Assembly: GCF_023016065.1 (NCBI RefSeq)
Contig: NZ_JALKAQ010000004.1
Location: 16,462 to 40,461, forward strand
Reading direction: 5' to 3'
Source: Marinobacter sp. S0848L
GTDB lineage: Bacteria; Pseudomonadota; Gammaproteobacteria; Pseudomonadales; Oleiphilaceae
Length of the DNA: 24,000 nucleotides
The notes beneath the pieces were generated by a model. The model was not told the origin of the DNA. It did not search any database and saw only the letters and a list, made by a program, of their open reading frames with translations. This document shows positions 1,213-18,932 of this stretch, one piece after another; the first letter of the stretch is position 1; each line of letters opens with the position of its first letter. The position numbers and the translations under genes are program-made.

Positions 1213-1911
1213 CTAACCGGCCAGCCTGGGCAAAAACGATGTATCCATCCAATAGCGCTTGAGATTGGCCTCATCGACCAGTACGGGCATTGTTTCCTGG
1301 TGAATATGATTAGTTGGATCAAACCACAGGTTATCGCTTCGGAATACATGAAGCTCACCGGTTTGAGGGTGCTGCCACTGGCAGACAATGCGGAACGGGT
1401 TACGACCGTTCACGGTCAGACTGGTGTTTTGCTCAACCGACGAAAATGTTGCGAGCACCTCGGTGCCGTGATCTTTCAGGTAAGCCTGTGAGCGGCTCTT
1501 CTTCCAACCAAACAACAGCATCCCGCCGCCAATGGCGCCAAACACGAGCCCCATACCTCCAAGAATCATGGGCAGCCCCCACAGCGAGAAGAAACTGTTG
1601 ATGCGAGCACTCTCCGGAACCGACGGCTCGTAAAACACAGACACACGCTCGCCGCGACTGAACGACGGCGGATTTGAGCCGGAACGCGACCGGAACTCGA
1701 TCTCCCTACCACGGATATCCTCGAAAACCACCACCGGATAATAGGTTGTCGAATCGCTGGAGCGAGAGCGCTCCAGGTCAGTGACCGTGCCCGTGGCTTC
1801 CGTGGCTCGCTCGATAAATGACACCGTACTGCTGTAACTCATCACCGCACCAACAAGCATACCGGCGCCAATGAGTGTGAAGACGTATTTGAGGATATTC
1901 AGGGTTTTCAA
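1213..1911 (-). CDS. DUF3592-type membrane protein with two beta-rich modules, each following a TM segment
   Basis: 232-aa ORF with a TTG start at 1911, preceded by AAGGA about 8 nt upstream. Order is N-terminal TM (FTLIGAGMLVGAVM), a module ATGTVTDLERSRSSDSTTYYPVVVFED..GREIEF.S....PPSFSRGERVSVFYEP typical of DUF3592, a second TM pair, then a second related module (HGTEVLATFSSVEQN...FRIVCQWQHP.TGELHVFRSD). Confidence 0.7.
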   Translation of the reverse strand: MKTLNILKYVFTLIGAGMLVGAVMSYSSTVSFIERATEATGTVTDLERSRSSDSTTYYPVVVFEDIRGREIEFRSRSGSNPPSFSRGERVSVFYEPSVPESARINSFFSLWGLPMILGGMGLVFGAIGGGMLLFGWKKSRSQAYLKDHGTEVLATFSSVEQNTSLTVNGRNPFRIVCQWQHPQTGELHVFRSDNLWFDPTNHIHQETMPVLVDEANLKRYWMDTSFLPRLAG

Positions 1912-1944: not shown

Positions 1945-2556
1945 TTAAGCCATCTGACCAATTTCGGCGCCTTCGGGAACGAGAGAAGGCATTTGGGGCT
2001 CACGCCCCTTCAAGATATTTGCCAGACGCCGCTCTCGTACCTTGTGAACGGAGGAATCAAACCTGAGTACCTTGAGGGGCACCGGGTCACCCTCCTGCAA
2101 CTTGTCGAACGTCGCCAGCTTACTCAGATAGAAGGCCCCACTGTGATTTTGGCCATCAAACTGAAAATCAAACTCAATCATAAGGTTACACTGATAATGC
2201 CCTTCCCCCTGAGGCTCATTTCGATGATCGTATTCCTGATGAAACTGACAATCCGCTTCTTTTTTGGTCAGTACGCCGTCCACCTCTACACCGTGCTTCC
2301 GTAGCAAGGCCTGGCCGTAGAGGTAGCTGGTACCTGAGTAAGTCGTGACGATAGCAAGCAGAACCATCCCAGCGCCCATCAATGCGAAGAAACCTCCCGC
2401 AATCATGGCACCCCAGTCGCCAAAGTCGACGTAGAAAATGCCACCACCCACAGCGGTGGTGATTATTCCTACGCACAGCATCGTTAGCATAATGCCTAGG
2501 TCAGATTTTATTGCTGACCACAGGAGCGGCCAATCAATGTGGTTTTTTCTGAGCAT
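1945..2556 (-). CDS. membrane protein with C-terminal DUF3592-like module (partial paralogue of 1213..1911)
   Basis: 203-aa ORF with an ATG start. It has two or three TM helices (GIMLTMLCVGIITTAVGGGIFYV, GAMIAGGFFALMGAGMVLLAIV). The following segment LLRKHGVEVDGVLTKKE...MIEFDFQFDGQNHSG...LQEGDPVPLKVLRFD resembles the second module of the neighbouring protein (YLKDHGTEVLATFSSVE...). No obvious SD upstream. Confidence 0.6.
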   Translation of the reverse strand: MLRKNHIDWPLLWSAIKSDLGIMLTMLCVGIITTAVGGGIFYVDFGDWGAMIAGGFFALMGAGMVLLAIVTTYSGTSYLYGQALLRKHGVEVDGVLTKKEADCQFHQEYDHRNEPQGEGHYQCNLMIEFDFQFDGQNHSGAFYLSKLATFDKLQEGDPVPLKVLRFDSSVHKVRERRLANILKGREPQMPSLVPEGAEIGQMA

Positions 2557-2636
2557 TTTTCCGGCGCTGGGAGGTTAGTTAATGGGTTGAGGTTGGTTAT
2601 CAACGCAGCAAACGATTGGCTCTGCTGAGAAAAGAC

Positions 2637-2839
2637 CTACCGGGGATGAGTTTTGCGCATTCTTTCATGAAGCTCGTCCAGCTCCTTCTGTTTTTGCGCC
2701 ATGTAGTCTTCTTCGATATCGATCAGGCGGGTTGTGGGGCCGTTTGGATCCAGGCGTTCTTGGACGACTTCAGTAACGTCCGTGTTTTATCAACTCTTAT
2801 TAAAGTGCTGAGCTCTTCCTCTGAACTTGAAAACCTCAC
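2637..2839 (-). pseudogene. possible frame-broken small ORF: two overlapping minus-strand frames that would fuse to about 67 aa with one extra A in an A4 tract
   Basis: Frame A runs from GTG 2839 to TGA 2723-2725 and reads VRFSSSEEELSTLIRVDKTRTLLKSS.... Frame B is open over 2640-2786 with stop TAG at 2637-2639 and reads NTDVTEVVQERLDPNGPTTRLIDIEEDYMAQKQKELDELHERMRKTHPR. The frames switch at a T4/A4 run at 2785-2788. There is no SD before the GTG and no in-frame ATG near the 5' end. Confidence 0.2.
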
Positions 2840-2894
2840 ATATTTATCGTCGGAATTACTTGTCGTACAGCGTCAGAGTATTGCACTCCGTTAA

Positions 2895-3833
2895 TCAGTT
2901 AACAGGCTCAGAGTGGTTAACGACACAACGGAAACCATTCCCCGAAGAATCAATGTGCTGACCACTTCGAGCAAACACGGTGCCGCCACCGCCAATGTGC
3001 TCCCCTCTACCGGCCCAGTCCCTCACGGTTTTTTCAGGATTGTCGGTATCAAGCGGACCGTCAGGACCTTTTGGATTTTCCTTGGGTGCGTTCCTGTAAT
3101 AGTCGCTTTGAAACCAATCCTGCGTCCATTCCGCTACATTTCCAGTCATGTCATAAAGGCCTAGCGGATTTGGTGGGTAGCTCCCAACCGGGCGCCGCTC
3201 GAACTTCAGCGAAGAGTGCATCAGGGTGTTGCCAGAAGGCGGTATCGAAGGGTCAACATACTCTTTCGGGCGGCGAAGGTAGGGATCCCTCTCGACATCG
3301 CCTGTATCGGTGGCATAGGGCACCTCCCTCCCCCGGCTTCGAGCCGCATACTCCCACTGAGCCTCCGTAGGCAAAGCAAAAGGCAGCCCGGTGCGTTCTG
3401 CAAGCCAGGCGCAATACCCCTCAGCCTCTCCGTAATTTGGTACTCGGGCGGGCTTTCGGTAATAGTTGGGTGACAAGGGGTCATCCGAAACCATCAGGTA
3501 CTTTTTTAAGCTGAACTGGTCTGCATATAGGTGAGCTCGCTCAAGATCTTCGTAGTAAACTGCCATTTCACCCCAAGTCGTCTCGAACCGCGATACCGAG
3601 TAACTATCGATCCTAACGTTAACCACTGGGCGGCTATGATCCGTCAGAGTCACGTAAGGAGTGCCATCAGGCTTCCCAACATCTCCAAGAGCAAACTCAC
3701 CACCTTGCACGAACACCTGATTATCTATAGCTTGCGTTAGGACTTGGGATACCACTTCATCCTCGCCACAGCCCGAAATAAGCGCTTGCACTACTACCAA
3801 ACAAACTACTTTTAGTGGATCAACACCCGACAT
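2895..3833 (-). CDS. FGE/SUMF1-fold (FGE-sulfatase domain) lipoprotein; candidate T6SS immunity protein
   Basis: 312-aa ORF. It has a lipoprotein signal with lipobox VVQALISG|C. FGE-sulfatase hallmarks are present: EAEGYCAWLAERTGLPFALPTEAQWEYAARS, NPLGLYDMTGNVAEWTQDWF, ENPKGP and a C-terminal GFRC. AGGAGG SD overlaps the stop codon of the upstream gene, with a 13-nt gap. Confidence 0.8.
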   Translation of the reverse strand: MSGVDPLKVVCLVVVQALISGCGEDEVVSQVLTQAIDNQVFVQGGEFALGDVGKPDGTPYVTLTDHSRPVVNVRIDSYSVSRFETTWGEMAVYYEDLERAHLYADQFSLKKYLMVSDDPLSPNYYRKPARVPNYGEAEGYCAWLAERTGLPFALPTEAQWEYAARSRGREVPYATDTGDVERDPYLRRPKEYVDPSIPPSGNTLMHSSLKFERRPVGSYPPNPLGLYDMTGNVAEWTQDWFQSDYYRNAPKENPKGPDGPLDTDNPEKTVRDWAGRGEHIGGGGTVFARSGQHIDSSGNGFRCVVNHSEPVN

Positions 3834-3846
3834 TAATCAAAGCCTC

Positions 3847-5964
3847 CTAAGCTATCCCGCATATTCGACAGGCATTAAACGGGTCCATTTGCACTGGTCT
3901 ACCCGCGATCGCGACTTTACTCCTCAGCTCATAAATGAATAACCTCTGATCAGTTTCACCTTTTCCAACGAACTCAAATAGGCGATCAAGGTTCTCTTGA
4001 AAATCCTCCCGATTGGCAACACCCTCAGGATTCATCCGAAACACCGTTTCTTCGAAATCACGCCAACTTTGAAATGAAGCAAGGATCTCGCTCACAGCCT
4101 GAATCTTTATGTCGTTACTACTCCAGATATCAGGTGTAACCCACCAATCATAGAGAATATTGTCCAAGACAGTGCCTTTGACTTCAGGAGGGGAATGCAA
4201 GAACACGGCGTCTTCCTTAAGAGCGAGATCATTGACAACGTTTTGGGCAAGCTCAGCCCCACCCCGCTCGCGCTTTCGTCCTACGAATACATCATCCACA
4301 AACTCTGCAAGCGCGGTCACCACGCTCGTCGCAAACTCATGAGCTGCCGCAGCAGCAGTGAGGCCACGCCCCAATGCGAACAAACTCATTCGTTTATACC
4401 AGTCGAACGCTTCCGTATCAGGATCAAATAACTCCAAATACCTGAAGTCCACATCAAGCAATGCGTTATAGACAAAATGAAGCATCCGCATAATTTTCTG
4501 TGTTTCTACTTCGAGAAGAAAACTTCCTGCGGCTCCGGCACCCAAAACGAGCCCTGCGTGGGCATTGCAATAAAACTTTCCTGTGGTTTCACTGAAGTGC
4601 AATCGAATATTAAACTCAGCTCCTGCACCAAACGCAGCCTCGACCTTCTTCCCGATACTGCAGAGCTTATCCCACTCTCGCGCTTCAGTTAGAACATCTC
4701 TCCAGCGCAGCTCACCTGAAACTTCACACCCGCCTCGGATACCCGCAAATACACCACCTTCTATCTCTGCTTTCTGCCCGTTCTGCCTAGCAGCAATTCC
4801 CTTTATAGTCGGGAGGCCATCGGTAGTAGATACATGAACATTACCGGCAACAAGTGCTGAGGCTCCGGCAAATCCCGAAAGCGAAGCCATAATCGCCGCC
4901 TGAAAATGCCCCAGCGAAGCAGTTCTCCGCTCGCCGTCCCAACCGCCAACCCGGTAAGGGATGTGAATTTCAGACCGATTATTCACAGGAAACGCCTGCT
5001 CTATACCCACTTTTCCTTGAGCCAGAGCAAACTGCCCTTCTAACTTCGCTTGAAAGTGAACTTTGCCTTTTCGCGGATCAAACTCACCAGAAGCACTTCC
5101 CCCCGCAGCAAAACGCATAAACTGAGCCTCTGCCGAAGCATCAAAGCCAGTTTCGTCGATCGCTTTTTGTCTTGCCTCGGCATCACCCCAGATCGACCAG
5201 GACGCCTCATCGTAAAACTTGTTCAATGTCGTCATGAGGGCACCATTCTGATCAGGCTCCCACAATTTTGCGTTGAACTTGATGTTTAGCTCACTTCGAA
5301 TAGCATCTCGAAGCTTTGCCGGATCAACACCATTCTCGGTTAACCATCCATCACTCCGCGCCCGGTCTCTTGCCGCTATGGAATAACGTCGCTGGTGATT
5401 CTTCATTTTGTCAGAGCGCACAAACGTAACATGTCTATTGCCGGCCAATCTTTTGATCTCAGTGATCGGCGGTATGCTCTGCATATCGTTAGTAAGAACG
5501 GAGCGAGCTTCCAGTTCTTCAACTAGGCGCTCTTTCTCTTCCTGCACTTCTGACAGCAACCGGCCTTCACCATCAGTCGGACTCAATTCGGAAACCTCGT
5601 CACCGTCGTTGAGCTCATCCAGCCTTTCATAAAACTCGTTTATCGGGCCGCAAACAAACTCTTCCTCCTCAAGCCACTCGGAGAGTTGCTCTTCCGTCAA
5701 CAGGATCAACTCATCAGAGCCGGTGACATGGACAACGTCCACAATTTCTTCTGCACATGGTGGTTCCTGAGCTATTTGCCCTACCTCGCAGCTGGAGAAA
5801 TCGGCATCGTTTGCAGCGGGAAGTTTGAGCCGTTGCCCGGGGAAAATCCGATCAGGATTATCGATATCCGGATTCAGTCTCAGGAGGCTGCTTAGCGTGG
5901 TTTGGTGTCGCTGTGCAATTGCACTGAGGGTGTCGCCGGACTTGACGGTATACTCGGAACTCAT
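3847..5964 (-). CDS. LysM-domain protein of unknown function; candidate T6SS effector loaded through the DUF4123 adaptor and VgrG
   Basis: 705-aa ORF whose ATG overlaps the DUF4123 stop by 4 nt (ATGA). No Sec signal peptide is evident. An N-terminal LysM domain is followed by an acidic linker, a Gly/Ala-rich core and a roughly 200-aa C-terminal region I do not recognise. The position immediately 3' of a DUF4123 gene is the canonical effector slot. Confidence 0.65.
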   Translation of the reverse strand: MSSEYTVKSGDTLSAIAQRHQTTLSSLLRLNPDIDNPDRIFPGQRLKLPAANDADFSSCEVGQIAQEPPCAEEIVDVVHVTGSDELILLTEEQLSEWLEEEEFVCGPINEFYERLDELNDGDEVSELSPTDGEGRLLSEVQEEKERLVEELEARSVLTNDMQSIPPITEIKRLAGNRHVTFVRSDKMKNHQRRYSIAARDRARSDGWLTENGVDPAKLRDAIRSELNIKFNAKLWEPDQNGALMTTLNKFYDEASWSIWGDAEARQKAIDETGFDASAEAQFMRFAAGGSASGEFDPRKGKVHFQAKLEGQFALAQGKVGIEQAFPVNNRSEIHIPYRVGGWDGERRTASLGHFQAAIMASLSGFAGASALVAGNVHVSTTDGLPTIKGIAARQNGQKAEIEGGVFAGIRGGCEVSGELRWRDVLTEAREWDKLCSIGKKVEAAFGAGAEFNIRLHFSETTGKFYCNAHAGLVLGAGAAGSFLLEVETQKIMRMLHFVYNALLDVDFRYLELFDPDTEAFDWYKRMSLFALGRGLTAAAAAHEFATSVVTALAEFVDDVFVGRKRERGGAELAQNVVNDLALKEDAVFLHSPPEVKGTVLDNILYDWWVTPDIWSSNDIKIQAVSEILASFQSWRDFEETVFRMNPEGVANREDFQENLDRLFEFVGKGETDQRLFIYELRSKVAIAGRPVQMDPFNACRICGIA
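4504..5133 (-). other. Gly/Ala-rich core with repeated short amphipathic segments (aa ~278-487 of the 705-aa protein)
   Basis: Recurrent segments are FAAGGSASGEF, GHFQAAIMASLSGFAGASALVAGNVHV, EIEGGVFAGIRGGCEVSGEL, VEAAFGAGAEFNIRLHF and HAGLVLGAGAAGSFLLEV. They show small-residue spacing of the GxxxG/AxxxA type. I recognise no catalytic motif. Confidence 0.4.
5821..5955 (-). other. LysM peptidoglycan-binding domain (aa 4-48 of the 705-aa protein)
   Basis: YTVKSGDTLSAIAQRHQTTLSSLLRLNPDIDNPDRIFPGQRLKLP matches the LysM consensus (Y.V..GDTL..IA......L...N........I..GQ.L.IP). Confidence 0.85.
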
Positions 5965-6758
5965 GAGGCAACTCCATATGCCAAACGTTTATCCAATTCT
6001 TTCAAGCGCATACCTGCTGGCATTTCAGAACTGGACAAAATAGCCTGAAATTCTGGATGCTCAATGCGCTCTCCGTGCACTACAGCTAGCTCTGCAAATC
6101 GGCTTACGTCTTTCTCTGTATGGAACCCAAACGAGTTGGCCTGCTGAATCAACGCGTTCACTCTGGATGTATCGTTTAGACAAAGATATCGGGCCAACCT
6201 GGTTGCGAACTCTTCTCTGGCCATCGCTGCCAGGGCCTCAATATGGTGATCAGCAAGAACAAACCAGCCTTCCTCAGCAGCCTGCCTGGCTGGTCTCTGG
6301 CCATCTGCACTGAATCGCCGCCATTGACCATCATTTTGGAACGCCAGCCAGTCTGTTATCGGGCCACTGAATTGGTCTCGCTCCAGATCACTGAACGCTC
6401 CCATCAACCTGACCAGCTGTTTTGGGGAATAGAACCTGAGATAGGAATAACCCCCATCAGGCAACTTGACGCTCAACAGGCTTCGTAAATGATCGGCCAA
6501 TACGGGCAGTATCTCGTCTGCCATCAGGACAACGGCATGGTCCTGCCACGTTCCCTGCTCTGACCATATTCGTGATGATGGCGAAGGCTTTACAAGGCAG
6601 GGGCTCACCTCGATGACCGCCTCATGGGGTGTACCAAGGTACAGGTATTCTAGTTCCGGCTGATCATCGTATTCATAGATGAATCTGGGAGCATCAAATA
6701 CCGCACCATCAATCAGTATGTAAGCTCGCTTAACGGCCTTCTCATCCAAGCCCATCAT
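5961..6758 (-). CDS. DUF4123 domain protein (T6SS effector adaptor/chaperone, Tap-1/TEC family)
   Basis: 265-aa ORF. YILIDGAVFD...YLYLG.PHE..IEVSPCLVKPS...HLRSLLSVKLPDGGYSYLRFYSPKQL..L...F....RDQFSGPITDW fits the DUF4123 pattern. It has 4-nt ATGA overlaps with vgrG upstream and the 705-aa gene downstream. Confidence 0.8.
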   Translation of the reverse strand: MMGLDEKAVKRAYILIDGAVFDAPRFIYEYDDQPELEYLYLGTPHEAVIEVSPCLVKPSPSSRIWSEQGTWQDHAVVLMADEILPVLADHLRSLLSVKLPDGGYSYLRFYSPKQLVRLMGAFSDLERDQFSGPITDWLAFQNDGQWRRFSADGQRPARQAAEEGWFVLADHHIEALAAMAREEFATRLARYLCLNDTSRVNALIQQANSFGFHTEKDVSRFAELAVVHGERIEHPEFQAILSSSEMPAGMRLKELDKRLAYGVAS

Positions 6759-8875
6759 GCAATGTCACCCTCACATGCACAGGCTTCCATGGCACAAGAA
6801 CCATCCGGTTGGCGGCCGCATTGCTTCACAAGAGCAACATCCTTTTTAGCTGCGGACTTCAACGCGGGCACCGAGGCTACAGAAGGGCCCGCTGTCGCTC
6901 TGGTGTCATTTTCCGCCACCTGCACCGGCTCATCGTTGGCCGTTAACTCGCTCAAACTCTCGGGCAACAACGGCCCCGTAACCCCAACCCCGCTACCACT
7001 CCCAGGCCCACCCCCTGAATTCATCCGCACCAAAGGCCCTGACACCGTCACCCCACTCGGGTCTACCTTCACAAAGCTGCCACCGGCCTTAAGCGTCACC
7101 TCAGCCCCGGCTTCGATCACGATTTTCATACCGGCCTTGTGGTGGATTTCGGTGCCGGCTTCCACCAGCTGGTTTTTGCCCTGCTTACTGTGGTGGCTGC
7201 CGTTTACGGTGAGACTGTAGTCGGCACCGATGCTCTCGCGATGTTCGCCATCTGTGGTGTGGTGGCTGTTGCCTTTGGTGTGGCTGAAGCGGTTGTTCAC
7301 CACCGTCAGGTGGCTGTCGTTCCTGATGACTTCGGTGCGGTTATTTTCCGTGAGCAGGTCCAAGTCTTTTTGGGCATGGACGTAGATTTGCTCCTGACCA
7401 GCTTCGTCTTCAAAGCGCAGTTCGTTGCTGCCCTCACCCTTATGGGTTTTGGTTTTTAATGTGGTGCGGGTTTTGTGTTCCGGCAGCGCGTACGGTGGTG
7501 TGTTGGTGGCGTGGTAGGTTCGGCCGGTGATGATGGGCTGGTCCGGGTCGCCATCGAGGAAGCTGACAATCACTTCGTTGCCAATTCTCGGTAGTGCCAT
7601 AAAGCCATACTGACCGCCAGCCCAGCCTTGGGAGACGCGCAGCCACGCGCTGCTGTGTTCATCGTTTTTGGAGTAGCGGTCCCAAGGGAACCGCACTTTT
7701 ACGCGGCCGTATTGGTCGCAGTGAATCTCTTCCCCTTCGGGGCCGGTCACGATGGCTATCTGGGGGCCGTCCATCACGGGTTTGTGCTCACAGAGGGCGC
7801 GCCAGGTTTTATCGGCGGGGATGGCGGTGAACTCGTTGGTGTAGCTGGTCGGTTCGCTACCGCCCTCTTCTTCCAGCGCTTGCGGTTGTTTACCGGTGTG
7901 GGTGATGGCGGTCAGCAGCCATTCCCGGTTCAGACTTTGGCTGTCGTGGTCTTGCAGTTCCACTTTGGCTCCGGCGGCAAAATCCGGGCGGTTGCTTTTA
8001 CCTTTGGCGACGGAGGCATCGTTTCTGAGTGCGTCTAATCGGGTTTGGGAAAACGGCTGGCCACTGGCGTCGGCTTTGTAGCGACCGGGGTATTCGTAGT
8101 GCTGGTAGTCTTCCCGGTGGTTTACACCGCCGGCACTCTGTTCGTGCATCAGAGCGTAGGCGGGGTTCTTGAAGGTGTAGTCTTTCATCGCCACCGATGA
8201 AGCGCGCACCCTTTCTTCGTAGGCGAAGCTGTAGATGCAGGCCTGCTGGGTGCTGCCGCCGGCTTTGGTGTTGCATTCTACCGGGTCTAATTTGGGCGCA
8301 TCACCGTGATGATCGGCAATGACTAAGGCCGGCTGCTCTTCACCGTCCACGCTGCCGTGTTGGTAGCGGTAGTGCCAGCCTTCTTCGGCAGCGAGTCGTT
8401 CCAAGAATTTCAGGTCGCTTTCGCGGTGCTGGACGCAGTATTCCCGCTCTTCGGGCGCGCGTTTCAGATCGAACACCGTATCCACAATGCCCCGCTCTTC
8501 CAACAGCGTGCGCACAATGGCATCGGTGGTCTGGGCCTGGAAAATACGACTGTTGTGCATTAAGCCCAAACGCCACACCGGAGGCTGAATCACCACTTCG
8601 TAATGGGTGCGGCGGTGGCCAGTGTTGCCTCGTACGAATTCGTTCACCACGCCGGTGAACCGACGCAGGGGCTGGCCGTCTTGCCACACCACCAGATCCA
8701 CCGGCTGTTCCAATACATCCGCGGCTTGCACGTCCGGATCGGTGCTGGCCAGTTTCAAACGGCCATGGGAGAGCGTGGACAAACCTTCGGTGAGCACAAA
8801 GCTGGCAACCACAAAGTGGTCTGAGGGGAATTCGCCAACACGGGCGGTGAACTGCAATCCGCTTGCCTGGGGCAT
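6755..8875 (-). CDS. vgrG: type VI secretion system tip protein VgrG (no enzymatic extension; short Cys-rich C-terminal tail)
   Basis: 706-aa ORF. The N-terminus MPQASGLQFTARVGEFP...FVV.SF...EGLS....G.L.LAS, the gp27-like region (RIFQ..T...IV..LL.E.GI...F.L), the gp5 OB-fold (GPQIAIVTGPEGEEIHCDQYGRVKVRFPWDR...SSAWLRVSQGWAG..YGFMALPRIGNEVIVSFLDGDPDQPIITGR.Y) and the beta-helix repeats are classic VgrG. Confidence 0.93.
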   Translation of the reverse strand: MPQASGLQFTARVGEFPSDHFVVASFVLTEGLSTLSHGRLKLASTDPDVQAADVLEQPVDLVVWQDGQPLRRFTGVVNEFVRGNTGHRRTHYEVVIQPPVWRLGLMHNSRIFQAQTTDAIVRTLLEERGIVDTVFDLKRAPEEREYCVQHRESDLKFLERLAAEEGWHYRYQHGSVDGEEQPALVIADHHGDAPKLDPVECNTKAGGSTQQACIYSFAYEERVRASSVAMKDYTFKNPAYALMHEQSAGGVNHREDYQHYEYPGRYKADASGQPFSQTRLDALRNDASVAKGKSNRPDFAAGAKVELQDHDSQSLNREWLLTAITHTGKQPQALEEEGGSEPTSYTNEFTAIPADKTWRALCEHKPVMDGPQIAIVTGPEGEEIHCDQYGRVKVRFPWDRYSKNDEHSSAWLRVSQGWAGGQYGFMALPRIGNEVIVSFLDGDPDQPIITGRTYHATNTPPYALPEHKTRTTLKTKTHKGEGSNELRFEDEAGQEQIYVHAQKDLDLLTENNRTEVIRNDSHLTVVNNRFSHTKGNSHHTTDGEHRESIGADYSLTVNGSHHSKQGKNQLVEAGTEIHHKAGMKIVIEAGAEVTLKAGGSFVKVDPSGVTVSGPLVRMNSGGGPGSGSGVGVTGPLLPESLSELTANDEPVQVAENDTRATAGPSVASVPALKSAAKKDVALVKQCGRQPDGSCAMEACACEGDIA

Positions 8876-8928
8876 AACTTCAGTCCCTGAAGTGTGTGAT
8901 TTAGATCCTGCTCGTCCTGAGCAATACG

Positions 8929-8957
8929 ATTATAACGAGAGCGCTCCATAAGACCAA
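8929..8957 (-). promoter_or_regulatory. putative sigma70-type promoter for the vgrG operon
   Basis: The minus strand reads TTGGTC (8957-8952), a 17-nt spacer, then TATAAT (8934-8929), about 55 nt upstream of the vgrG ATG. This is an eye-called motif match only. Confidence 0.35.
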
Positions 8958-12534: not shown

Positions 12535-12631
12535 CCGAAACCCTTCTTATCTATGAACGTTTTGTATGTTGAATGATAAGCCGGAGCGCTCTAGGGTTAA
12601 GGAAACCAAACAAACAAGAAAGGGGTCTGCA

Positions 12632-13033
12632 ATGAACGGCATTCGACGCTATGCCAAGCAGTTTTCGCTTGTGATGGCCATTCTGATGGCTTTTGCCACC
12701 ACCTTTTCAGTCTCTGCCCATGCTGGCATGGTCGGGACCGGTGAGTTGATCCAGCAACAACAGGTCAACCTCGACCGCCAGCAGTTGCTGAACATGCTGG
12801 AACAGCAGGACGTTAAAGAAAAACTCGCCGAACTCGGTGTCAGTGAAGACCAGGTGGCGGAGCGAATTCAGAACCTTACGCCCACCGAACTGGCCGATTT
12901 TGAGCAACAGCTGGCCGAAGCCCCCACCGGTGAAGGGGTGGTCGGGATCATTGTTTTATTCCTGTTGGTGTTCATCATCACCGACATGCTGTGTGCCACT
13001 AACCTATTCTCTTTCATCAATTGCATTCGCTAA
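12632..13033 (+). CDS. PA2779-family-like small exported protein (signal peptide, Gln/Glu-rich helical middle, hydrophobic C-terminal tail)
   Basis: 133 aa from ATG 12632, with a GAAAGGGG SD about 6 nt upstream. The signal peptide is SLVMAILMAFATTFSVSAHA|G. The middle reads LGVSEDQVAERIQNLTPTELADFEQQL. The C-terminal TM-like segment is VVGIIVLFLLVFIITDML. It is paired with a PA2778-like peptidase. Confidence 0.6.
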   Translation: MNGIRRYAKQFSLVMAILMAFATTFSVSAHAGMVGTGELIQQQQVNLDRQQLLNMLEQQDVKEKLAELGVSEDQVAERIQNLTPTELADFEQQLAEAPTGEGVVGIIVLFLLVFIITDMLCATNLFSFINCIR

Positions 13034-14040
13034 TTCAACCTCTTTTCAAGACCGCACTCTTTCGATGCAGCAGACTGGCAGCCCTTCTCGGGCTGCTTCT
13101 GCTGGTCGGCTGCGCAAGCACACCGCCCTGGCCCACCCCGCCCGATGCCAATCAGATGGTGGCGTCAGGTCAGCAGTTACTACAGGACGTACCCTTCTAT
13201 CCGCAGGAAAAATACCAATGTGGTCCGGCCTCTTTGGCCACTATGCTCAATAGCCAAGGCCTGAGCACCGACCCGGAAATCCTGAAAGAACTGGTTTATT
13301 TGCCGGGCCGGGAAGGCTCGCTGCAAGTCGAAATGGTCGCCGGTGCGCGGTCACACAACATGGTCGTTTACCCGTTACAACCAAACATCGAAACACTGCT
13401 GGCAGAAGTCTCCGTCGGCAACCCGGTGCTGGTAATGCAGAACCTGGGGTTCGATTGGTGGCAACAGTGGCATTTTGCCGTGGTTGTCGGTTACGACCAT
13501 CAGGAGGAAACCCTGATACTCAATACCGACACACGCAAACATCACCGCCAACCCTATAAGGTATTTGATGCCACCTGGAGCCGTGCCGAACGTTGGGCAG
13601 CAGTGATCCTGCCGCCTGATCAGTTGCCTGCAACGGCAGAGCTTTTGCCCTGGTTACGGGCCGCCCACGATCTGGAAAGTACCGGGCATACACTTGCTGC
13701 GGAAACGGCCTACCAAACAGCCAAACAAAACTGGACGGACGAGCCTTCGCCGCTTCTGGCTCTGGGGAATCTGGCCTACGGCCAGAACCGCTTTAACGAT
13801 GCCGCCAACTACCTGCGCATTGCCACCGAACGGTTTCCGGAGTTTGCCGAAGGCTGGAATAATCTGGCTTACGCCTTGTCCGCATCGGGCTGCGCCAAAC
13901 AGGCTGATCAGGCAATGTCCTGCGCTGCCAAGTTAGCCGGTGACCGCTTCCCGGTCGAGAACTTCCACCCGGATGCGCGCTCATCCGACACCAAGCCCTC
14001 ATGCAAAAAATTACCGCTTTGCCCGATTGAAACCGAGTAA
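13021..14040 (+). CDS. PA2778-family-like cysteine peptidase (C39-like papain fold) with C-terminal TPR repeats; lipoprotein
   Basis: 339 aa with a TTG start at 13021, overlapping the upstream stop by 13 nt. The lipobox is LLLLVG|CAS. The candidate Cys nucleophile lies in QEKYQCGPASLATML and the candidate His in WHFAVVVGYD. TPR-like helices follow (AETAYQTAKQ....LLALGNLAYGQNRFNDAANYLRIATERFPEFAEGWNNLAYAL). Confidence 0.65.
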   Translation: MHSLIQPLFKTALFRCSRLAALLGLLLLVGCASTPPWPTPPDANQMVASGQQLLQDVPFYPQEKYQCGPASLATMLNSQGLSTDPEILKELVYLPGREGSLQVEMVAGARSHNMVVYPLQPNIETLLAEVSVGNPVLVMQNLGFDWWQQWHFAVVVGYDHQEETLILNTDTRKHHRQPYKVFDATWSRAERWAAVILPPDQLPATAELLPWLRAAHDLESTGHTLAAETAYQTAKQNWTDEPSPLLALGNLAYGQNRFNDAANYLRIATERFPEFAEGWNNLAYALSASGCAKQADQAMSCAAKLAGDRFPVENFHPDARSSDTKPSCKKLPLCPIETE

Positions 14041-16165: not shown

Positions 16166-17986
16166 ATGAAACTCAGTAACCTCAATACCAACGTGCGCAA
16201 GCTCGGCCCCGCCGTAGCCGCTGCAGCACTGATGGCTGGTGGTGCGAGCAACGCAGCAGCAGAACAAGTCTCAACCGAACTGGCCTTTGAATGTCCGTTT
16301 CCGCTGATTGGCACCCAACCCATTCGCGCGCAAATCAGTGCTGACATTCCCGCCGTAGCATCTGTGGGTGAACCAACCCCACAATTTGAAGTGACTGCGA
16401 TTACCGTGGTCAATGACGATGCCCGCACCGGTTTGAAACTCGTTGGCTCCGAAACCGTCGAAGGCGTCGCCACAAGCACAAACAACATCATTACGGCTGG
16501 CCGTGCTCTGGAGCAAATTGTCACCCTGCAGATTCCGCCTACCGCTATTCCTGCCGAAACTGGCGAGTTCAATGTGCCAGCCTCGGGTGTGGCGCCCGAA
16601 ATCCTGTTCACCGCCGATGACATCGGCCAGGCTGAAATTCGCGTTGGCGCTTTACAGCTCGAGCTGATCGCGCGTACCGCGAACGGTGACATTGCTCCAG
16701 CACCCATCGGTGAAATCACCACCGACTGTGTGCAGCTGCCGAACCAGAACAACCTTCTACAAACCATCACCGTCGCTGGTGAGGTCGTCGAAACACCGCG
16801 CATCAGCGTGGATACTCAAGAACTGGCCTTTGGTTCCGTACAGGCAGGTTTGAGCGCTCAGCAGTCTGTTTCTATCCTCAGCACCGGCAGTGCCGCGCTG
16901 GGTATCAACAACATCAGCATCAGCGGCCCTGATGCGCAACTGTTTACCCAAACCAGTGATTGCGGCTCTTCCCTGGCTCCAGATGCATCTTGTAGCGTTA
17001 ACGTAACCTTCGCACCAAGCACCGACGGCACGCGTAACGCCACTCTCACCATTGAGTCTACCGATGCCGACAAGCCAAGCATCGACGTTGCCCTATCAGG
17101 CCGAGGCACTCTGGCACCTACACCTGAAATTGCCGTTACCCCGGGTTCTGTAGATTTGGGCCGCGTCCAGGTTGGCACCAGCAAATCAGAGCAAGTGAGC
17201 ATTGCCAACAACGGCAACGCCGCTTTGCAGATCGACAGCATTGCGCTGACAGGCTCCAATGCCAGCGACTTCACCCAAACCAACAACTGCACCACGGTCG
17301 CTGCGGGTGCTAGCTGCTCTGTCGAGCTGAACTACACAGCGGGCGCTGCTGGCGTGAGCACCGCAGCCCTGGTGATCCGCTCCAGCGATACCGAAAATGC
17401 CGAAGTGACTGTACCTGTCACCGTTGAAGCCTTTGAAGAACCCACAGGCGGCACTGAGCTTGAGCTGCTATTGGGCCTTGAAGGTTCCACTCTAATCGCC
17501 GCGAATGGTGGCAGCCTGCCACTGAACGGCACTATCGCCACGTTGCTTGATCTGGCCTCTGGTACTTTCGAAGCAGACACTCAGGTGAACCCAACGTCTG
17601 GCAACTTCACCATCAAGGTACTGTGGAGCAAGATGCACGCAGCGGCCAACGTTGAATTCGAGCAAGCCGGGCTGACCACCGGCTCTCTGGTCGATGGCAA
17701 GCTGACTGCTAACTCCCCGCTTTACGTGAAAGTGCCCAAGGTTGCGATCAAACTCTTCGGCCTGCCAGTGCGCATCGGTGGGGGCGATCAGTGCCGCACC
17801 AGCACTCCGGTTGATATTCAGCTGACAAGCCCCGAAGGCTCAAACTTCTCGCCAGCAACCGGCGGCAACGTAACCGGTGTTTACGACCTGCCACCGCTTG
17901 AGAACTGTGGCCTGCTGACCAGCGTGTTGAACAAGTTCATGTCTGGCCCAGGCAACACCATCAACCTGAACCTGACGCCACAATAA
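16166..17986 (+). CDS. secreted multidomain protein: DUF6801-like N-terminal domain, two tandem choice-of-anchor-D-like Ig-type domains, uncharacterised C-terminal domain
   Basis: 606 aa with an AGAGGA SD 7 nt upstream. The Sec signal is AAAALMAGGASNAAA|EQ. The N-terminal domain FECPFPLIGTQPIRAQISADIPAVASVGEPTPQFEVTA...TVEG resembles what I recall of DUF6801. There are two roughly 100-aa repeats with the pattern FG.V..G.S....V.I.N.G.A.L.I..I...G.....F.QT..C...L....SC.V.V.F.P. Confidence 0.75.
   Translation: MKLSNLNTNVRKLGPAVAAAALMAGGASNAAAEQVSTELAFECPFPLIGTQPIRAQISADIPAVASVGEPTPQFEVTAITVVNDDARTGLKLVGSETVEGVATSTNNIITAGRALEQIVTLQIPPTAIPAETGEFNVPASGVAPEILFTADDIGQAEIRVGALQLELIARTANGDIAPAPIGEITTDCVQLPNQNNLLQTITVAGEVVETPRISVDTQELAFGSVQAGLSAQQSVSILSTGSAALGINNISISGPDAQLFTQTSDCGSSLAPDASCSVNVTFAPSTDGTRNATLTIESTDADKPSIDVALSGRGTLAPTPEIAVTPGSVDLGRVQVGTSKSEQVSIANNGNAALQIDSIALTGSNASDFTQTNNCTTVAAGASCSVELNYTAGAAGVSTAALVIRSSDTENAEVTVPVTVEAFEEPTGGTELELLLGLEGSTLIAANGGSLPLNGTIATLLDLASGTFEADTQVNPTSGNFTIKVLWSKMHAAANVEFEQAGLTTGSLVDGKLTANSPLYVKVPKVAIKLFGLPVRIGGGDQCRTSTPVDIQLTSPEGSNFSPATGGNVTGVYDLPPLENCGLLTSVLNKFMSGPGNTINLNLTPQ
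16796..17428 (+). repeat. two tandem ~100-aa intragenic domain repeats (aa ~211-314 and ~320-421)
   Basis: Repeat 1 is PRISVDTQELAFGSVQAGLSAQQSVSILSTGSAALGINNISISGPDAQLFTQTSDCGSSLAPDASCSVNVTFAPSTDGTRNATLTIESTD. Repeat 2 is EIAVTPGSVDLGRVQVGTSKSEQVSIANNGNAALQIDSIALTGSNASDFTQTNNCTTVAAGASCSVELNYTAGAAGVSTAALVIRSSD. Confidence 0.8.
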
Positions 17987-17998
17987 GTTCGAAAAGTT

Positions 17999-18045
17999 CC
18001 GGCTATGCCGGGAATCGGTCACAACCGGCATAGCCGGTTGTGACC
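17999..18045 (+). promoter_or_regulatory. intercistronic stem-loop cluster with mutually exclusive pairings
   Basis: There is a perfect 13-bp inverted repeat ggtcacaaccggc-ata-gccggttgtgacc at 18017-18045. In addition, ccggctatgccgg (17999-18011) is self-complementary and is also the exact complement of ccggcatagccgg (18025-18037). No U-run follows. Confidence 0.5.
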
Positions 18046-18086
18046 TACAAGCACGACAATAAAAGCAAAAAACAAGGAATACTGAT

Positions 18087-18932
18087 ATGAAAAGCCTGAA
18101 AAAAACCGCGTTAGTGCTGGCTGTCGCTGGGCTCCCGTTAGTCGCCCACGCAGACCTCAAGCCACTCGAAGATGCTCACATGAGCAATGTGACCGGCCAG
18201 GCCGGCGTGACCATTGAGCTGGAAACAAAGCTCTCCATCGATGAATTCATCTACACCGATGAAGGCTCCTTCTCGATCAAAGACATCAAGATCGGGGGTG
18301 CCAATCGCACGGACCTGTTTGAAGAAATCACCGATTTCCGTGACATCATGTTCGGTGGAGCCAACGACCTCATTGATAACATCAAGATCGACATCGATGT
18401 TGAAGCAGACGGTGATGCCGTCATCAACATCTGGCCCCTCACCGCAGCGCCGATCGACTTTGGCGTAAGCACGGGTGACTGGACCCTGCAAGGTGCTACC
18501 GATTCCACTCTGCTCGCCAGCAACTTCAGCATGGTGGGTGCGTTTACCAAAGTGGGTATCCGCGTTGATACCGCCACCGACAAGCTTAACCTGAAGACTC
18601 AGGTTGGTATCTCTGATCTGGATGTCGATGTCGACTTCCTGGCTCTGGGTATTCGCGACCTGAAAATGACGGGTGCTGACTATATGGGCACCAAACTCGA
18701 CGGTTCTGCAGCGAACCCAAGTGTCCTGACTCTGGGCGCGAATATCGACATGGACGTGTATAAGTCCACCCGTTTGGCCGATCCCACCCAAGACGCTCTG
18801 GCGATCGATCTGAATACCTTTGCGGCAGACATGTCGATTGGTGATGTATTGGTTGGCGGAACCTCCATCGGGTCCGTCATGCTAGACAACCTGGTGGTTG
18901 ATAACACCCAATTGCGGATTTACGGTCACTAA
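18087..18932 (+). CDS. DUF6160-like secreted protein (FilA-like N-terminal motif)
   Basis: 281 aa. The signal peptide is KKTALVLAVAGLPLVAHA|D. The conserved-looking N-terminal motif LKPLEDAHMSNVTGQAGVTIE is followed by an acidic, Asp/Ile-rich sequence of beta-strand character. It lies 100 nt downstream of the 606-aa gene. Confidence 0.6.
   Translation: MKSLKKTALVLAVAGLPLVAHADLKPLEDAHMSNVTGQAGVTIELETKLSIDEFIYTDEGSFSIKDIKIGGANRTDLFEEITDFRDIMFGGANDLIDNIKIDIDVEADGDAVINIWPLTAAPIDFGVSTGDWTLQGATDSTLLASNFSMVGAFTKVGIRVDTATDKLNLKTQVGISDLDVDVDFLALGIRDLKMTGADYMGTKLDGSAANPSVLTLGANIDMDVYKSTRLADPTQDALAIDLNTFAADMSIGDVLVGGTSIGSVMLDNLVVDNTQLRIYGH

What the first reader, a model, noticed from the sequence alone, without database searches (positions are those of the whole stretch)
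2895..8957. Orphan vgrG cargo module: vgrG, DUF4123 adaptor, 705-aa LysM protein, FGE-fold lipoprotein
Four minus-strand genes are packed as one translationally coupled unit. There are ATGA 4-nt overlaps at 6755-6758 and 5961-5964. A 13-nt gap follows, in which the AGGAGG SD of the lipoprotein gene overlaps the upstream TAG stop. It is established for V. cholerae Tap-1/TEC with TseL, and for related systems, that a DUF4123 adaptor encoded between vgrG and a downstream gene loads that downstream product onto the cognate VgrG. The gene after the effector is usually its immunity protein. Here the effector slot holds a large protein with no catalytic domain I can recognise, and the immunity slot holds an FGE/SUMF1-fold lipoprotein. 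No hcp, PAAR or tss core genes are in the window, so this would be an auxiliary cluster serving a T6SS encoded elsewhere. It is the best candidate in the window for a previously uncharacterised effector-immunity system.
Basis: partly seen in the sequence, partly recalled or inferred. Interest (0 to 1): 0.8.

Follow-up and report, generated by a model that had tools for sequence, protein, structure and literature searches.

The report
Marinobacter Tse3–Tsi3 type VI toxin module
This is a four-gene cassette that arms a bacterial type VI secretion "harpoon" with a toxin and its antidote. It belongs to a toxin–antidote family first described in Acinetobacter in 2021, so it is a new example of a known kind, although how the toxin kills is still unknown.

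Summary
Four minus-strand genes (vgrG 6755-8875, DUF4123 5961-6758, a 705-aa LysM protein 3847-5964, an FGE-fold lipoprotein 2895-3833) are joined by two ATGA overlaps and a Shine-Dalgarno site that overlaps a stop codon.

The 705-aa protein is a LysM-fused homologue of Acinetobacter baumannii Tse3, a validated antibacterial T6SS effector of unknown activity (hhalign probability 100%, E 5e-43). FGE-domain proteins next to tse3 homologues are the published Tsi3 immunity family (Lopez et al. 2021).

The toxin domain occurs in about 390 protein clusters. It is fused to LysM, OmpA, PG_binding_1, VgrG, PAAR or MIX. In 9 of 10 non-Marinobacter loci examined it sits next to one or two FGE lipoprotein genes, in some cases inside core T6SS clusters or on conjugative plasmids.

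Among 17 Marinobacter alleles, effector residues 1-300 co-vary with the adaptor. Residues 461-705 co-vary with the FGE protein.

The toxin has no recognisable fold or catalytic residues. My best guess, at about 40%, is a toxin that acts in the periplasm and permeabilises a membrane. Verdict: new member of a known kind, modest interest.

The parts
8929..8957 (-). Candidate sigma-70 promoter of the module: -35-like TTGGTC (8952-8957), a 17-nt spacer, then a perfect -10 TATAAT (8929-8934).
   Evidence: Read from the sequence. The consensus scan did not call it because the -35 matches only 3 of 6. Its function is inferred, not shown.
6755..8875 (-). vgrG (TssI), 706 aa. It has a C-terminal tail (aa ~561-706) ending in a Cys-rich stretch.
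   Evidence: TIGR03361 5.4e-184; Phage_GPD 1.9e-78; Phage_base_V; Gp5_trimer_C. Divergence of the tail co-varies with divergence of the adaptor, r 0.95.
5961..6758 (-). DUF4123 (Tap/Tec-type) adaptor, 265 aa. Its start overlaps the vgrG stop (ATGA 6755-6758).
   Evidence: PF13503 2.6e-22. Weak Tla1 match, below the cut-off. Conserved between vgrG and the effector in Marinobacter loci and in Pseudomonas, Vibrio and Aliivibrio loci.
3847..5964 (-). Tse3-family T6SS effector, 705 aa. Its start overlaps the adaptor stop (ATGA 5961-5964).
   Evidence: hhalign of the family profile against A. baumannii Tse3: probability 100%, E 5e-43. BLASTP 2e-11. 393 representative clusters at E<=1e-3.
5818..5952 (-). 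LysM domain of the effector (aa 5-49).
   Evidence: PF01476 2.7e-17. PDB LysM matches. pLDDT 86-94.
5065..5799 (-). N-terminal loading region of the effector (aa ~56-300). It co-varies with the adaptor.
   Evidence: r 0.81-0.90 with DUF4123 divergence and <=0.16 with FGE divergence.
3967..5160 (-). Region aligned to A. baumannii Tse3 residues 473-898 (aa 269-666). It comprises a Gly/Ala-rich beta-rich core followed by a helical domain.
   Evidence: hhalign. AF2 model. Family-invariant residues R284, P326, G408, W421, G477, G480, plus G475 in 90% or more of sequences.
3850..4584 (-). C-terminal module of the effector (aa 461-705) that co-varies with the immunity protein. It includes a hypervariable segment at aa 521-590.
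   Evidence: r 0.87-0.95 with FGE divergence and <=0.24 with the adaptor; mean identity 0.43 over aa 521-590.
3843..3848 (-). Shine-Dalgarno AGGAGG of the immunity gene. It overlaps the effector's TAG stop (3847-3849) and lies 9 nt upstream of the ATG.
   Evidence: Sequence read.
2895..3833 (-). Tsi3-like FGE-fold lipoprotein, 312 aa: the presumed cognate immunity protein.
   Evidence: PF03781 3.1e-30. Best PDB match is PvdO, 1e-16. Lipobox ISGC with Cys22, and no FGE catalytic Cys pair. 32-57% identical to the FGE genes beside distant effector homologues.

Best explanation
This is an auxiliary ('orphan') type VI secretion cargo module of a Marinobacter strain close to M. nauticus. It belongs to the Tse3-Tsi3 effector-immunity family.

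Proposed workings, with the basis of each step:
- (1) The four genes are co-transcribed and translationally coupled. Shown as sequence anatomy; expression itself is inferred.
- (2) The DUF4123 adaptor bridges the VgrG C-terminal tail and the effector's N-terminal third (LysM plus aa ~56-300), so that the effector rides on the VgrG spike of a T6SS encoded elsewhere in the genome. Inferred from the established role of DUF4123 and supported here by covariation.
- (3) After injection into a neighbouring Gram-negative cell, the C-terminal toxin region (homologous to A. baumannii Tse3) acts in the periplasm. Inferred from two observations: the immunity proteins are lipoproteins, and family members carry the peptidoglycan-binding modules LysM, OmpA or PG_binding_1.
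- (4) The FGE-fold lipoprotein protects the producer and its kin by binding the effector's C-terminal part (aa ~461-705), not by enzymatic action. Binding and lack of enzymatic action were shown for A. baumannii Tsi3 by Lopez et al. The binding region is inferred here from covariation.
- (5) The killing activity is unknown. My best guess, at about 40%, is non-enzymatic permeabilisation or depolarisation of a membrane by the Gly/Ala-rich beta-hairpin core.
For: Anatomy and domains.

Homology to the validated effector Tse3:
- BLASTP 2e-11 over 594 columns.
- Profile-profile probability 100%, E 5e-43 over 376 columns.
- The Tse3 sequence was recovered from PMC6833914 supplements.

Published evidence on A. 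baumannii Tse3/Tsi3:
- Deleting tse3 abolishes killing of E. coli (PMC5061870).
- Tsi3 binds Tse3 and protects. Non-cognate homologues do not protect. Tsi3 homologues lack the FGE catalytic residues. Their neighbourhoods are enriched in vgrG, Hcp, PAAR and DUF4123.

Neighbourhoods:
- vgrG-DUF4123-effector-FGE is kept in all 26 Marinobacter loci wherever the contig reaches.
- 9 of 10 non-Marinobacter loci have one or two adjacent FGE genes. Two of these lie inside core T6SS clusters (L029, L032), two are VgrG fusions (L031, L037) and two are on conjugative plasmids (L034, L035).

Domain fusions among 54 homologues: LysM 11, OmpA 8, VgrG 4, PAAR 3, PG_binding_1 2, DUF4280 1, VasX_N/MIX 1.

Immunity side: all 10 FGE partners examined have a signal peptide and a lipoprotein-type Cys preceded by a small residue, 7 of 10 matching the lipobox pattern I scanned for, and no catalytic Cys pair.

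Covariation, split at about aa 300-460.

For the membrane guess:
- Family-invariant residues are only Gly, Pro, Trp and Arg, with two near-invariant Glu.
- The region aa 271-490 is 29% Gly+Ala and has glycine-zipper-like segments.
- AF2 predicts long beta-hairpins there.
- The A. baylyi effector Tse2 kills without rapid lysis, with propidium iodide entry, and is unaffected by osmoprotection (PMC7274471). I believe, from memory only, that Tse2 is the Tse3 orthologue ACIAD3114.

T6SS core genes in the genus: reported for M. aquaeolei, M. salsuginis, M. atlanticus and M. hydrocarbonoclasticus.
Against: - Nothing was tested experimentally in Marinobacter.
- This genome's own T6SS core was not checked.
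- I could not compare the FGE protein directly with A. baumannii Tsi3, because no sequence was available.
- The covariation uses 17 related alleles with no phylogenetic correction. Physical linkage alone would make neighbouring segments co-vary.
- For the membrane guess: no segment reaches a clear transmembrane hydrophobicity (maximum Kyte-Doolittle 19-residue mean 1.58). The beta-rich core is the least confident part of the model (pLDDT 26-58). No structural match to any pore-former was found. [quoted passage not shown]
- The identity of A. baylyi Tse2 with ACIAD3114 rests on my memory, because the Ringel et al. 2017 paper is not held.
Confidence: 0.85

Rival explanations
1. The toxin is a new kind of cell-wall-degrading enzyme. 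LysM, OmpA or PG_binding_1 would hold it on peptidoglycan, and conserved acidic residues (E169, E594) would catalyse glycan or peptide cleavage.
For: - 21 of 54 homologues carry a peptidoglycan-binding module. In some, an OmpA-like domain is inserted inside the toxin region.
- In published surveys, LysM in vgrG loci mostly accompanies Lyz-like, NlpD or NlpC/P60 toxins.
- The immunity protein is periplasmic.
- E169 and E594 are nearly invariant.
Against: - No hydrolase domain is detected by Pfam, NCBIfam, PDB sequence search or Foldseek.
- Members fused to VgrG, PAAR or MIX have no peptidoglycan-binding module.
- The probable A. baylyi orthologue is non-lytic and unaffected by osmoprotection, unlike the amidase Tae1.
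Confidence: 0.2
2. The FGE-fold lipoprotein is an active enzyme. It would either reverse or prevent the toxin's damage, or be a housekeeping SUMF1/PvdO-like enzyme that merely lies downstream.
For: The FGE fold is usually enzymatic. The best PDB and NCBIfam matches are PvdO, FGE and EgtB.
Against: - The two FGE catalytic cysteines are absent from this protein and from all 9 other partners examined.
- Lopez et al. found that protection requires binding and is not provided by non-cognate homologues.
- Its divergence tracks the effector's C-terminus, r 0.87-0.95.
- It is adjacent to the toxin domain in 9 of 10 unrelated loci. Tandem non-identical copies are common.
Confidence: 0.05
3. The 705-aa protein is not itself toxic. 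It would be a secreted LysM co-effector or loading factor, like the stand-alone LysM protein of Ketobacter, and the real toxin lies elsewhere.
For: LysM proteins in vgrG loci can mediate VgrG-effector contact without being toxic (PMC10673891).
Against: - No other candidate toxin gene lies in the operon.
- The non-LysM part is homologous to Tse3, whose deletion abolishes killing and whose neighbour gives immunity.
- The same domain is fused directly to VgrG, PAAR and MIX.
Confidence: 0.03
4. The module is a silent or decaying remnant that no longer serves a working T6SS in this strain.
For: There is no T6SS core in the window. One related locus appears to have a split vgrG (L010).
Against: - All four reading frames are intact and tightly coupled.
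- The module is conserved across more than 100 Marinobacter protein clusters at 55-100% identity.
- T6SS core genes and their expression are reported in the genus, including M. hydrocarbonoclasticus/nauticus.
Confidence: 0.05

Closest known systems
Tse3-Tsi3 of Acinetobacter baumannii ATCC 17978 (Weber et al. 2016; Lopez et al. 2021). Its A. baylyi orthologues are ACIAD3114 and ACIAD3112/3113.
   Same: - The toxin region is homologous (probability 100%, E 5e-43).
- An FGE-domain partner lacking the catalytic cysteines lies next to the effector.
- The pair is linked to vgrG.
- Related loci carry tandem non-identical FGE copies, and some carry the FGE gene on the opposite strand.
   Different: - This effector is 705 aa with an N-terminal LysM domain and a separate DUF4123 adaptor. 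Tse3 is 1001 aa with an unannotated 470-aa N-terminus and directly follows vgrG3.
- Here the immunity gene is single, on the same strand and translationally coupled.
- Identity between the two toxin regions is only about 21%.
DUF4123 (Tap-1/TEC) adaptor modules, for example V. cholerae VgrG1-Tap1-TseL or VasW-VasX, and P. putida Tap3-Tke5.
   Same: The gene order is vgrG, adaptor, effector, immunity. The adaptor co-varies with the VgrG tail and with the effector N-terminus.
   Different: The cargo is not a lipase and not a BTH_I2691/MIX pore-former. No MIX domain is detected in this protein.
LysM-fused T6SS effectors and LysM loading domains (Commun Biol 2023, PMC10673891; Acinetobacter Tae17, Tpe4, Tpe18).
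   Same: An N-terminal LysM domain on a cargo effector encoded in a vgrG locus.
   Different: Those effectors carry NlpC/P60, M23, amidase or lysozyme-like domains. This one has none.
Pore-forming T6SS toxins with glycine-zipper or beta-rich cores (VasX/Tke5 of the BTH_I2691 family, Tse4, Ssp6, Tme).
   Same: This concerns how it may work, not membership. It shares Gly/Ala-rich, moderately hydrophobic segments and an envelope-facing immunity protein. The probable orthologue kills without lysis.
   Different: There is no sequence or fold similarity. The immunity protein is a soluble-fold lipoprotein, not an integral membrane protein as for Tki5 and TsiV2.

Membership tests
Tse3-type T6SS effector family | Sequence homology of the toxin region to A. 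baumannii Tse3 (ACX60_11695) | tested here: met
   BLASTP 2e-11, 21% identity over 594 columns. hhalign probability 100%, E 5e-43, query 269-666 against Tse3 473-898.
Tse3-type T6SS effector family | Encoded in a vgrG locus or otherwise tied to T6SS delivery parts | tested here: met
   vgrG and DUF4123 lie immediately upstream. Homologues are fused to VgrG, PAAR or MIX, or lie inside core clusters.
Tse3-type T6SS effector family | T6SS-dependent antibacterial activity neutralised by the neighbouring gene | not testable with these tools
   Shown only for A. baumannii.
Tsi3 (FGE-like) T6SS immunity family | FGE-sulfatase domain | tested here: met
   PF03781 3.1e-30. PvdO 1e-16 and FGE 1e-11 in the PDB.
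Tsi3 (FGE-like) T6SS immunity family | Lacks the paired catalytic cysteines of true FGEs | tested here: met
   The protein has four Cys only: C11, C22 (lipobox), C141 and C303 in GFRC. There is no C-x4-C pair in the C-terminal region.
Tsi3 (FGE-like) T6SS immunity family | Encoded next to a tse3 homologue | tested here: met
   13-nt gap with a coupled Shine-Dalgarno site. Adjacent in 9 of 10 distant loci.
Tsi3 (FGE-like) T6SS immunity family | Tandem arrays of non-identical copies, often on the opposite strand (frequent, not defining: about 84% of cases in Lopez et al.) | tested here: inconclusive
   The window has one copy, on the same strand. Arrays or opposite-strand copies occur in L003, L007, L011, L012, L021, L022, L029, L031, L034-L037.
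Tsi3 (FGE-like) T6SS immunity family | Direct sequence similarity to A. baumannii Tsi3 | not tested
   No Tsi3 sequence could be obtained. The supplement of PMC6833914 lists no immunity protein for effector group 3.
DUF4123 (Tap/Tec) T6SS adaptor | PF13503 domain, encoded between vgrG and its cargo | tested here: met
   2.6e-22, aa 13-128. Position confirmed.
DUF4123 (Tap/Tec) T6SS adaptor | Needed for loading the effector and not itself secreted | not testable with these tools
   Indirect support only: covariation with the VgrG tail (r 0.95) and with the effector N-terminus (r 0.81-0.90).
VgrG/TssI | gp27-like, gp5 OB and trimerisation domains | tested here: met
   TIGR03361 5.4e-184; PF05954, PF04717 and PF22178.
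BTH_I2691 / VasX pore-forming effectors | Match to NF041559, or a MIX/VasX_N domain | tested here: not met
   No NCBIfam or Pfam hit at E<=0.01 outside LysM. One distant homologue has a sub-threshold VasX_N match as its N-terminal delivery domain only.
LysM peptidoglycan-hydrolase effectors (Tae/Tpe/Tge types) | A recognisable amidase, M23, NlpC/P60 or lysozyme-like catalytic domain | tested here: not met
   None found by Pfam, NCBIfam, PDB sequence search or Foldseek.

The most novel reading that the evidence does not exclude
The Tse3-family toxin region is a fold not seen in solved structures. It would work as a peptidoglycan-tethered, periplasm-acting membrane permeabiliser. Its immunity specificity would be set by the C-terminal helical module (aa ~461-705, hypervariable at 521-590), which the FGE-fold lipoprotein binds. 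The Marinobacter alleles would then form a natural series of recombinant chimeras for mapping that interface.
Probability: 0.35. Interest if true: 0.55.

Novelty: new member of a known kind. Interest (0 to 1): 0.3.

Why it matters
As a locus it adds little, because it extends a published effector-immunity family to Marinobacter. Three points carry some value.

- The family's killing mechanism is still unknown in the literature I could read, up to 2026.
- All 10 immunity partners examined are lipoproteins, and the effector splits into an adaptor-linked N-terminal half and an immunity-linked C-terminal part.

Together these observations point experiments at the periplasm and at residues 461-705.

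Tried and rejected
- Profile searches of the 5.8-billion protein index with alignments A3 and A5. Marinobacter, VgrG and LysM candidates swamped the results, and no Acinetobacter sequence was reached. I recovered Tse3 from the supplement of PMC6833914 instead. The spreadsheet copy is cut at 400 aa, and the PDF copy carries small machine-reading errors.
- First AF2 model, built from Marinobacter sequences only (pLDDT 53.6). It was replaced by a model from a 90-sequence alignment (pLDDT 71).
- BTH_I2691/VasX membership was rejected: no hit.
- Rossmann reading of the invariant G-x-G-x-x-G (aa 475-480). I considered it and set it aside. The motif sits in a predicted beta-hairpin, with no following helix and no other nucleotide-binding signature.
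- A second FGE copy or a remnant in the 338-nt spacer 2557-2894: none found.
- The sigma-70 and terminator scan gave no more sites than the shuffled controls.
- Ringel et al. 2017 and the journal version of Lopez et al. are not held. The equation of A. baylyi Tse2 with ACIAD3114 therefore stays unverified.
- The supplements of Lopez et al. are not held, so I could not check whether this Marinobacter protein is already in their list of Tsi3 homologues.

Full report
**1. The observation**

The four minus-strand reading frames are real: 6755-8875 (706 aa), 5961-6758 (265 aa), 3847-5964 (705 aa) and 2895-3833 (312 aa). I read the junctions directly.
- The vgrG stop and the DUF4123 start share ATGA at 6755-6758.
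- The DUF4123 stop and the 705-aa start share ATGA at 5961-5964.
- The TAG stop of the 705-aa gene (3847-3849) overlaps AGGAGG (3843-3848), which lies 9 nt before the ATG of the last gene.

It is the first base of TTGGTC-N17-TATAAT (8952-8957 and 8929-8934) upstream of the vgrG ATG at 8873-8875. The -10 hexamer is perfect. The -35 matches 3 of 6, so the consensus scan did not list it.

- Phage_GPD 1.9e-78, with TIGR03361 5.4e-184
- DUF4123 2.6e-22
- LysM 2.7e-17 (aa 5-49)
- FGE-sulfatase 3.1e-30

The 312-aa protein starts with a signal peptide and the lipobox ISGC (Cys22). The other ORFs of 80 aa or more in the window encode ordinary housekeeping or unknown proteins, with no hcp, PAAR or tss core gene. 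ORFs shorter than 80 aa were not scanned.

**2. Organism and conservation**

The 705-aa protein is identical to a protein of Marinobacter sp. S0848L and 98% identical to one of M. nauticus ATCC 49840. More than 100 Marinobacter clusters share 55-100% identity with it. In 26 Marinobacter genome loci the order vgrG, DUF4123, effector, FGE is kept wherever the contig reaches. Several loci carry two or three FGE paralogues after the effector, some on the opposite strand (L003, L007, L011, L012, L021, L022).

**3. What the 705-aa protein is**

Outside LysM it matches no Pfam, NCBIfam or PDB sequence. An exhaustive HMMER search with residues 56-705 found 393 representative clusters at E<=1e-3, of which 216 were at <=1e-10.

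I scanned 54 of them for domains. The shared region corresponds to query residues ~165-665. It is preceded by different delivery or anchoring modules:
- LysM (11)
- OmpA (8)
- VgrG (4)
- PAAR (3)
- PG_binding_1 (2)
- DUF4280 (1)
- VasX_N/MIX (1, below the Pfam cut-off)

In a few members an OmpA-like domain is inserted inside the shared region. This is the signature of a polymorphic T6SS toxin domain.

**4. Neighbourhoods of distant homologues**

| Locus | Source | Arrangement |
|---|---|---|
| L029 | Pseudomonas sp. TTU2014-080ASC (36% identity) | inside a core T6SS cluster: tssG ... vgrG, DUF4123, LysM effector, FGE, FGE, FHA, tssJ, tssK, tssL, tssM |
| L031 | metagenome | VgrG-fused member followed by two FGE genes |
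| L032 | metagenome | MIX-type member between tssE and tssF, followed by one FGE gene |
| L033 | hydrothermal-vent contig | effector followed by one FGE gene |
| L027 | 45%-identical LysM member | effector followed by one FGE gene |
| L036 | Gynuella sunshinyii | two vgrG genes, an OmpA-type member, FGE gene on the opposite strand |
| L037 | metagenome | VgrG-PAAR fusion followed by two FGE genes |
| L034, L035 | conjugative plasmids of Vibrio campbellii and Aliivibrio salmonicida | (hcp,) vgrG, DUF4123, LysM protein, opposite-strand 'SUMF1/EgtB/PvdO family' gene |
| L038 | short contig | a vgrG-like gene, not an FGE gene, directly downstream |

Nine of ten informative non-Marinobacter loci therefore pair the domain with an FGE gene. 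These FGE proteins are 32-57% identical to the window's. All ten FGE proteins examined, including the window's own, have a signal peptide and a lipoprotein-type Cys preceded by a small residue (7 of 10 match the lipobox pattern scanned), and none has the paired catalytic cysteines of true FGEs.

**5. It is a known family**

A literature search found Lopez et al. [quoted passage not shown] The paper reports:
- A. baumannii ATCC 17978 Tse3 (1001 aa, unknown function) and Tsi3 (FGE domain) are an effector-immunity pair.
- Tsi3 binds Tse3.
- Non-cognate homologues do not protect.
- A non-binding point mutant does not protect.
- Tsi3 homologues lack the FGE, PvdO and EgtB catalytic residues.
- They usually occur in arrays of non-identical copies, often opposite to a tse3 homologue.
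- Their neighbourhoods are enriched in vgrG, hcp, PAAR and DUF4123.

Weber et al. 2016 showed that deleting tse3 abolishes killing of E. coli, and they listed ACIAD3114 and ACIAD3112/3113 as the A. baylyi counterparts.

To test homology directly I recovered the Tse3 sequence from the supplements of Lewis et al. 2019.
- BLASTP against the window protein gives E 2e-11 over 594 columns.
- The 90-sequence family profile aligns to Tse3 with probability 100% and E 5e-43, query 269-666 against Tse3 473-898.
- The shared motifs are plain by eye: AQxMR..AGAS, GFxGA, AFAG....G.L.W, G.GA.G, PE.KG.

The Marinobacter protein is therefore a LysM-fused Tse3-family effector and the lipoprotein a Tsi3-type partner. 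I could not compare the lipoprotein with Tsi3 itself, because no sequence was available.

A K. pneumoniae NTUH-K2044 Tsi3 homologue was used by Lopez et al.. Another paper describes a 'LysM gene' in that strain's vgrG-tssM variable region. This suggests that LysM-fused Tse3 homologues were already within the published set. That point is inference.

**6. Modular structure**

From 17 full-length Marinobacter alleles I compared pairwise divergence of segments.

| Segment | r with DUF4123 adaptor | r with FGE protein |
|---|---|---|
| Effector aa 1-300 | 0.81-0.90 | <=0.16 |
| Effector aa 301-460 | 0.44 | 0.65 |
| Effector aa 461-705 | <=0.24 | 0.87-0.95 |
| VgrG tail, aa 561-706 | 0.95 | 0.58 |

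- The least conserved stretch of the effector is aa 521-590 (mean identity 0.43).
- GC content falls from 0.58-0.59 over vgrG to 0.476 over the effector's 3' part.
- The simplest reading is a loading module (VgrG tail, adaptor, effector N-terminus) recombined with a toxin-immunity module (effector C-terminus, FGE). Immunity recognition would then lie in the C-terminal helical part.
- Caveats: the alleles are related, no phylogenetic correction was made, and physical adjacency alone favours such a pattern.

**7. How the toxin may work**

The better AF2 model (pLDDT 71, pTM 0.53) has four parts:
- a confident LysM domain;
- a confident small alpha/beta unit at aa 73-119;
- a Gly/Ala-rich core of long beta-hairpins (aa ~300-486) whose tips are of low confidence;
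- a confident helical domain at aa 488-680 (pLDDT 80-97).

Foldseek finds no relative of anything but LysM in the PDB or BFVD.

Across 90-128 homologues the invariant residues are R284, P326, G408, W421, G477 and G480, with G475 in 90% or more of sequences. E169, E594 and P593 are near-invariant. There is no conserved His, Ser, Cys or Asp set. The region aa 271-490 is 29% Gly+Ala, with glycine-zipper-like segments (AAIMASLSGFAGASALVAG, AGLVLGAGAAGSF). Their hydrophobicity is only borderline.

Lipoprotein immunity and peptidoglycan-binding partners point to the periplasm as the site of action.

The A. baylyi effector Tse2 kills efficiently but lyses slowly, lets propidium iodide into intact cells and is unaffected by osmoprotection. 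Its mechanism was still called unknown in 2025. I believe Tse2 is ACIAD3114, the Tse3 orthologue, but that is from memory, because the source paper is not held. A 2026 review says no pore-forming effector has yet been demonstrated in Acinetobacter.

On balance I rate the possibilities as follows:
- non-enzymatic membrane permeabilisation or depolarisation from the periplasmic side: about 40%;
- a novel cell-wall enzyme: about 20%;
- something else: the remainder.

**8. T6SS elsewhere in the genome**

This was not tested for this genome. Published work reports the following:
- T6SS core genes in M. aquaeolei (15 of 18 orthologues), M. salsuginis and M. atlanticus.
- T6SS proteins associated with M. 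hydrocarbonoclasticus biofilms on hexadecane, as cited in the M. atlanticus paper.

**9. Verdict**

The system is not uncharacterised: it is a new member of the Tse3-Tsi3 family, with a LysM and DUF4123 delivery front end of a kind already described. Interest is modest. The remaining open question, what Tse3-type toxins do, belongs to the whole family rather than to this locus.

Noticed in passing
window 2501-8500: GC content steps down along the module: 0.58-0.59 over vgrG, about 0.50 over most of the effector, and 0.476 over its 3' part (3501-4500). It rises to 0.52 over the FGE gene. This fits separate origins for the loading half and the toxin half.
   Followed up: partly
window 1213-1911 and 1945-2556: Two minus-strand membrane proteins lie downstream of the module: a DUF3592 protein (232 aa) and a 203-aa protein with a similar layout but no Pfam hit. 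The DUF3592 gene recurs after the FGE genes in several Marinobacter loci. The 203-aa gene has no counterpart in any of the 26 loci.
   Followed up: partly
window 2557-2894: A 338-nt spacer with 47% GC lies between the FGE gene and the next gene. It has no convincing ORF, no FGE remnant and no terminator-like site.
   Followed up: yes
window 12566-14040: A DUF6627 protein (155 aa) overlaps the start of a C39-like peptidase/TPR protein (339 aa). The pair looks coupled and its role is unknown.
   Followed up: no
window 16166-18932: A 606-aa protein with DUF6801 and several Ig-like (ASH/HYDIN/Cep192-type) domains is followed by a DUF6160 protein (281 aa). This may be a surface or secreted pair.
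   Followed up: no
proteins P0213, P0237, P0268 (homologues found): In these Tse3-family members an OmpA-like peptidoglycan-binding domain is inserted inside the toxin region, between the first beta segments and the Gly-rich core, rather than fused at the N-terminus.
   Followed up: partly
L034 4079-10556 and L035 3429-10462: Complete (hcp-)vgrG-DUF4123-LysM-Tse3-like-FGE modules sit on conjugative plasmids: Vibrio campbellii pLA16-1 and Aliivibrio salmonicida pVSAL840. The family therefore travels on mobile elements.
   Followed up: partly
L021 1571-12989; L010 2412-4519: In Marinobacter sp. AC-23 the vgrG is separated from the DUF4123 gene by about 5.8 kb, which includes an opposite-strand FGE paralogue. 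In M. lipolyticus SM19 the vgrG match is split into two pieces, suggesting a frameshift or an assembly error.
   Followed up: no
L036 1352-11805: The Gynuella sunshinyii locus has several full and partial vgrG-like genes around the OmpA-type Tse3 homologue, and a PG_binding_1 protein further downstream. It looks like a compound cargo island.
   Followed up: no
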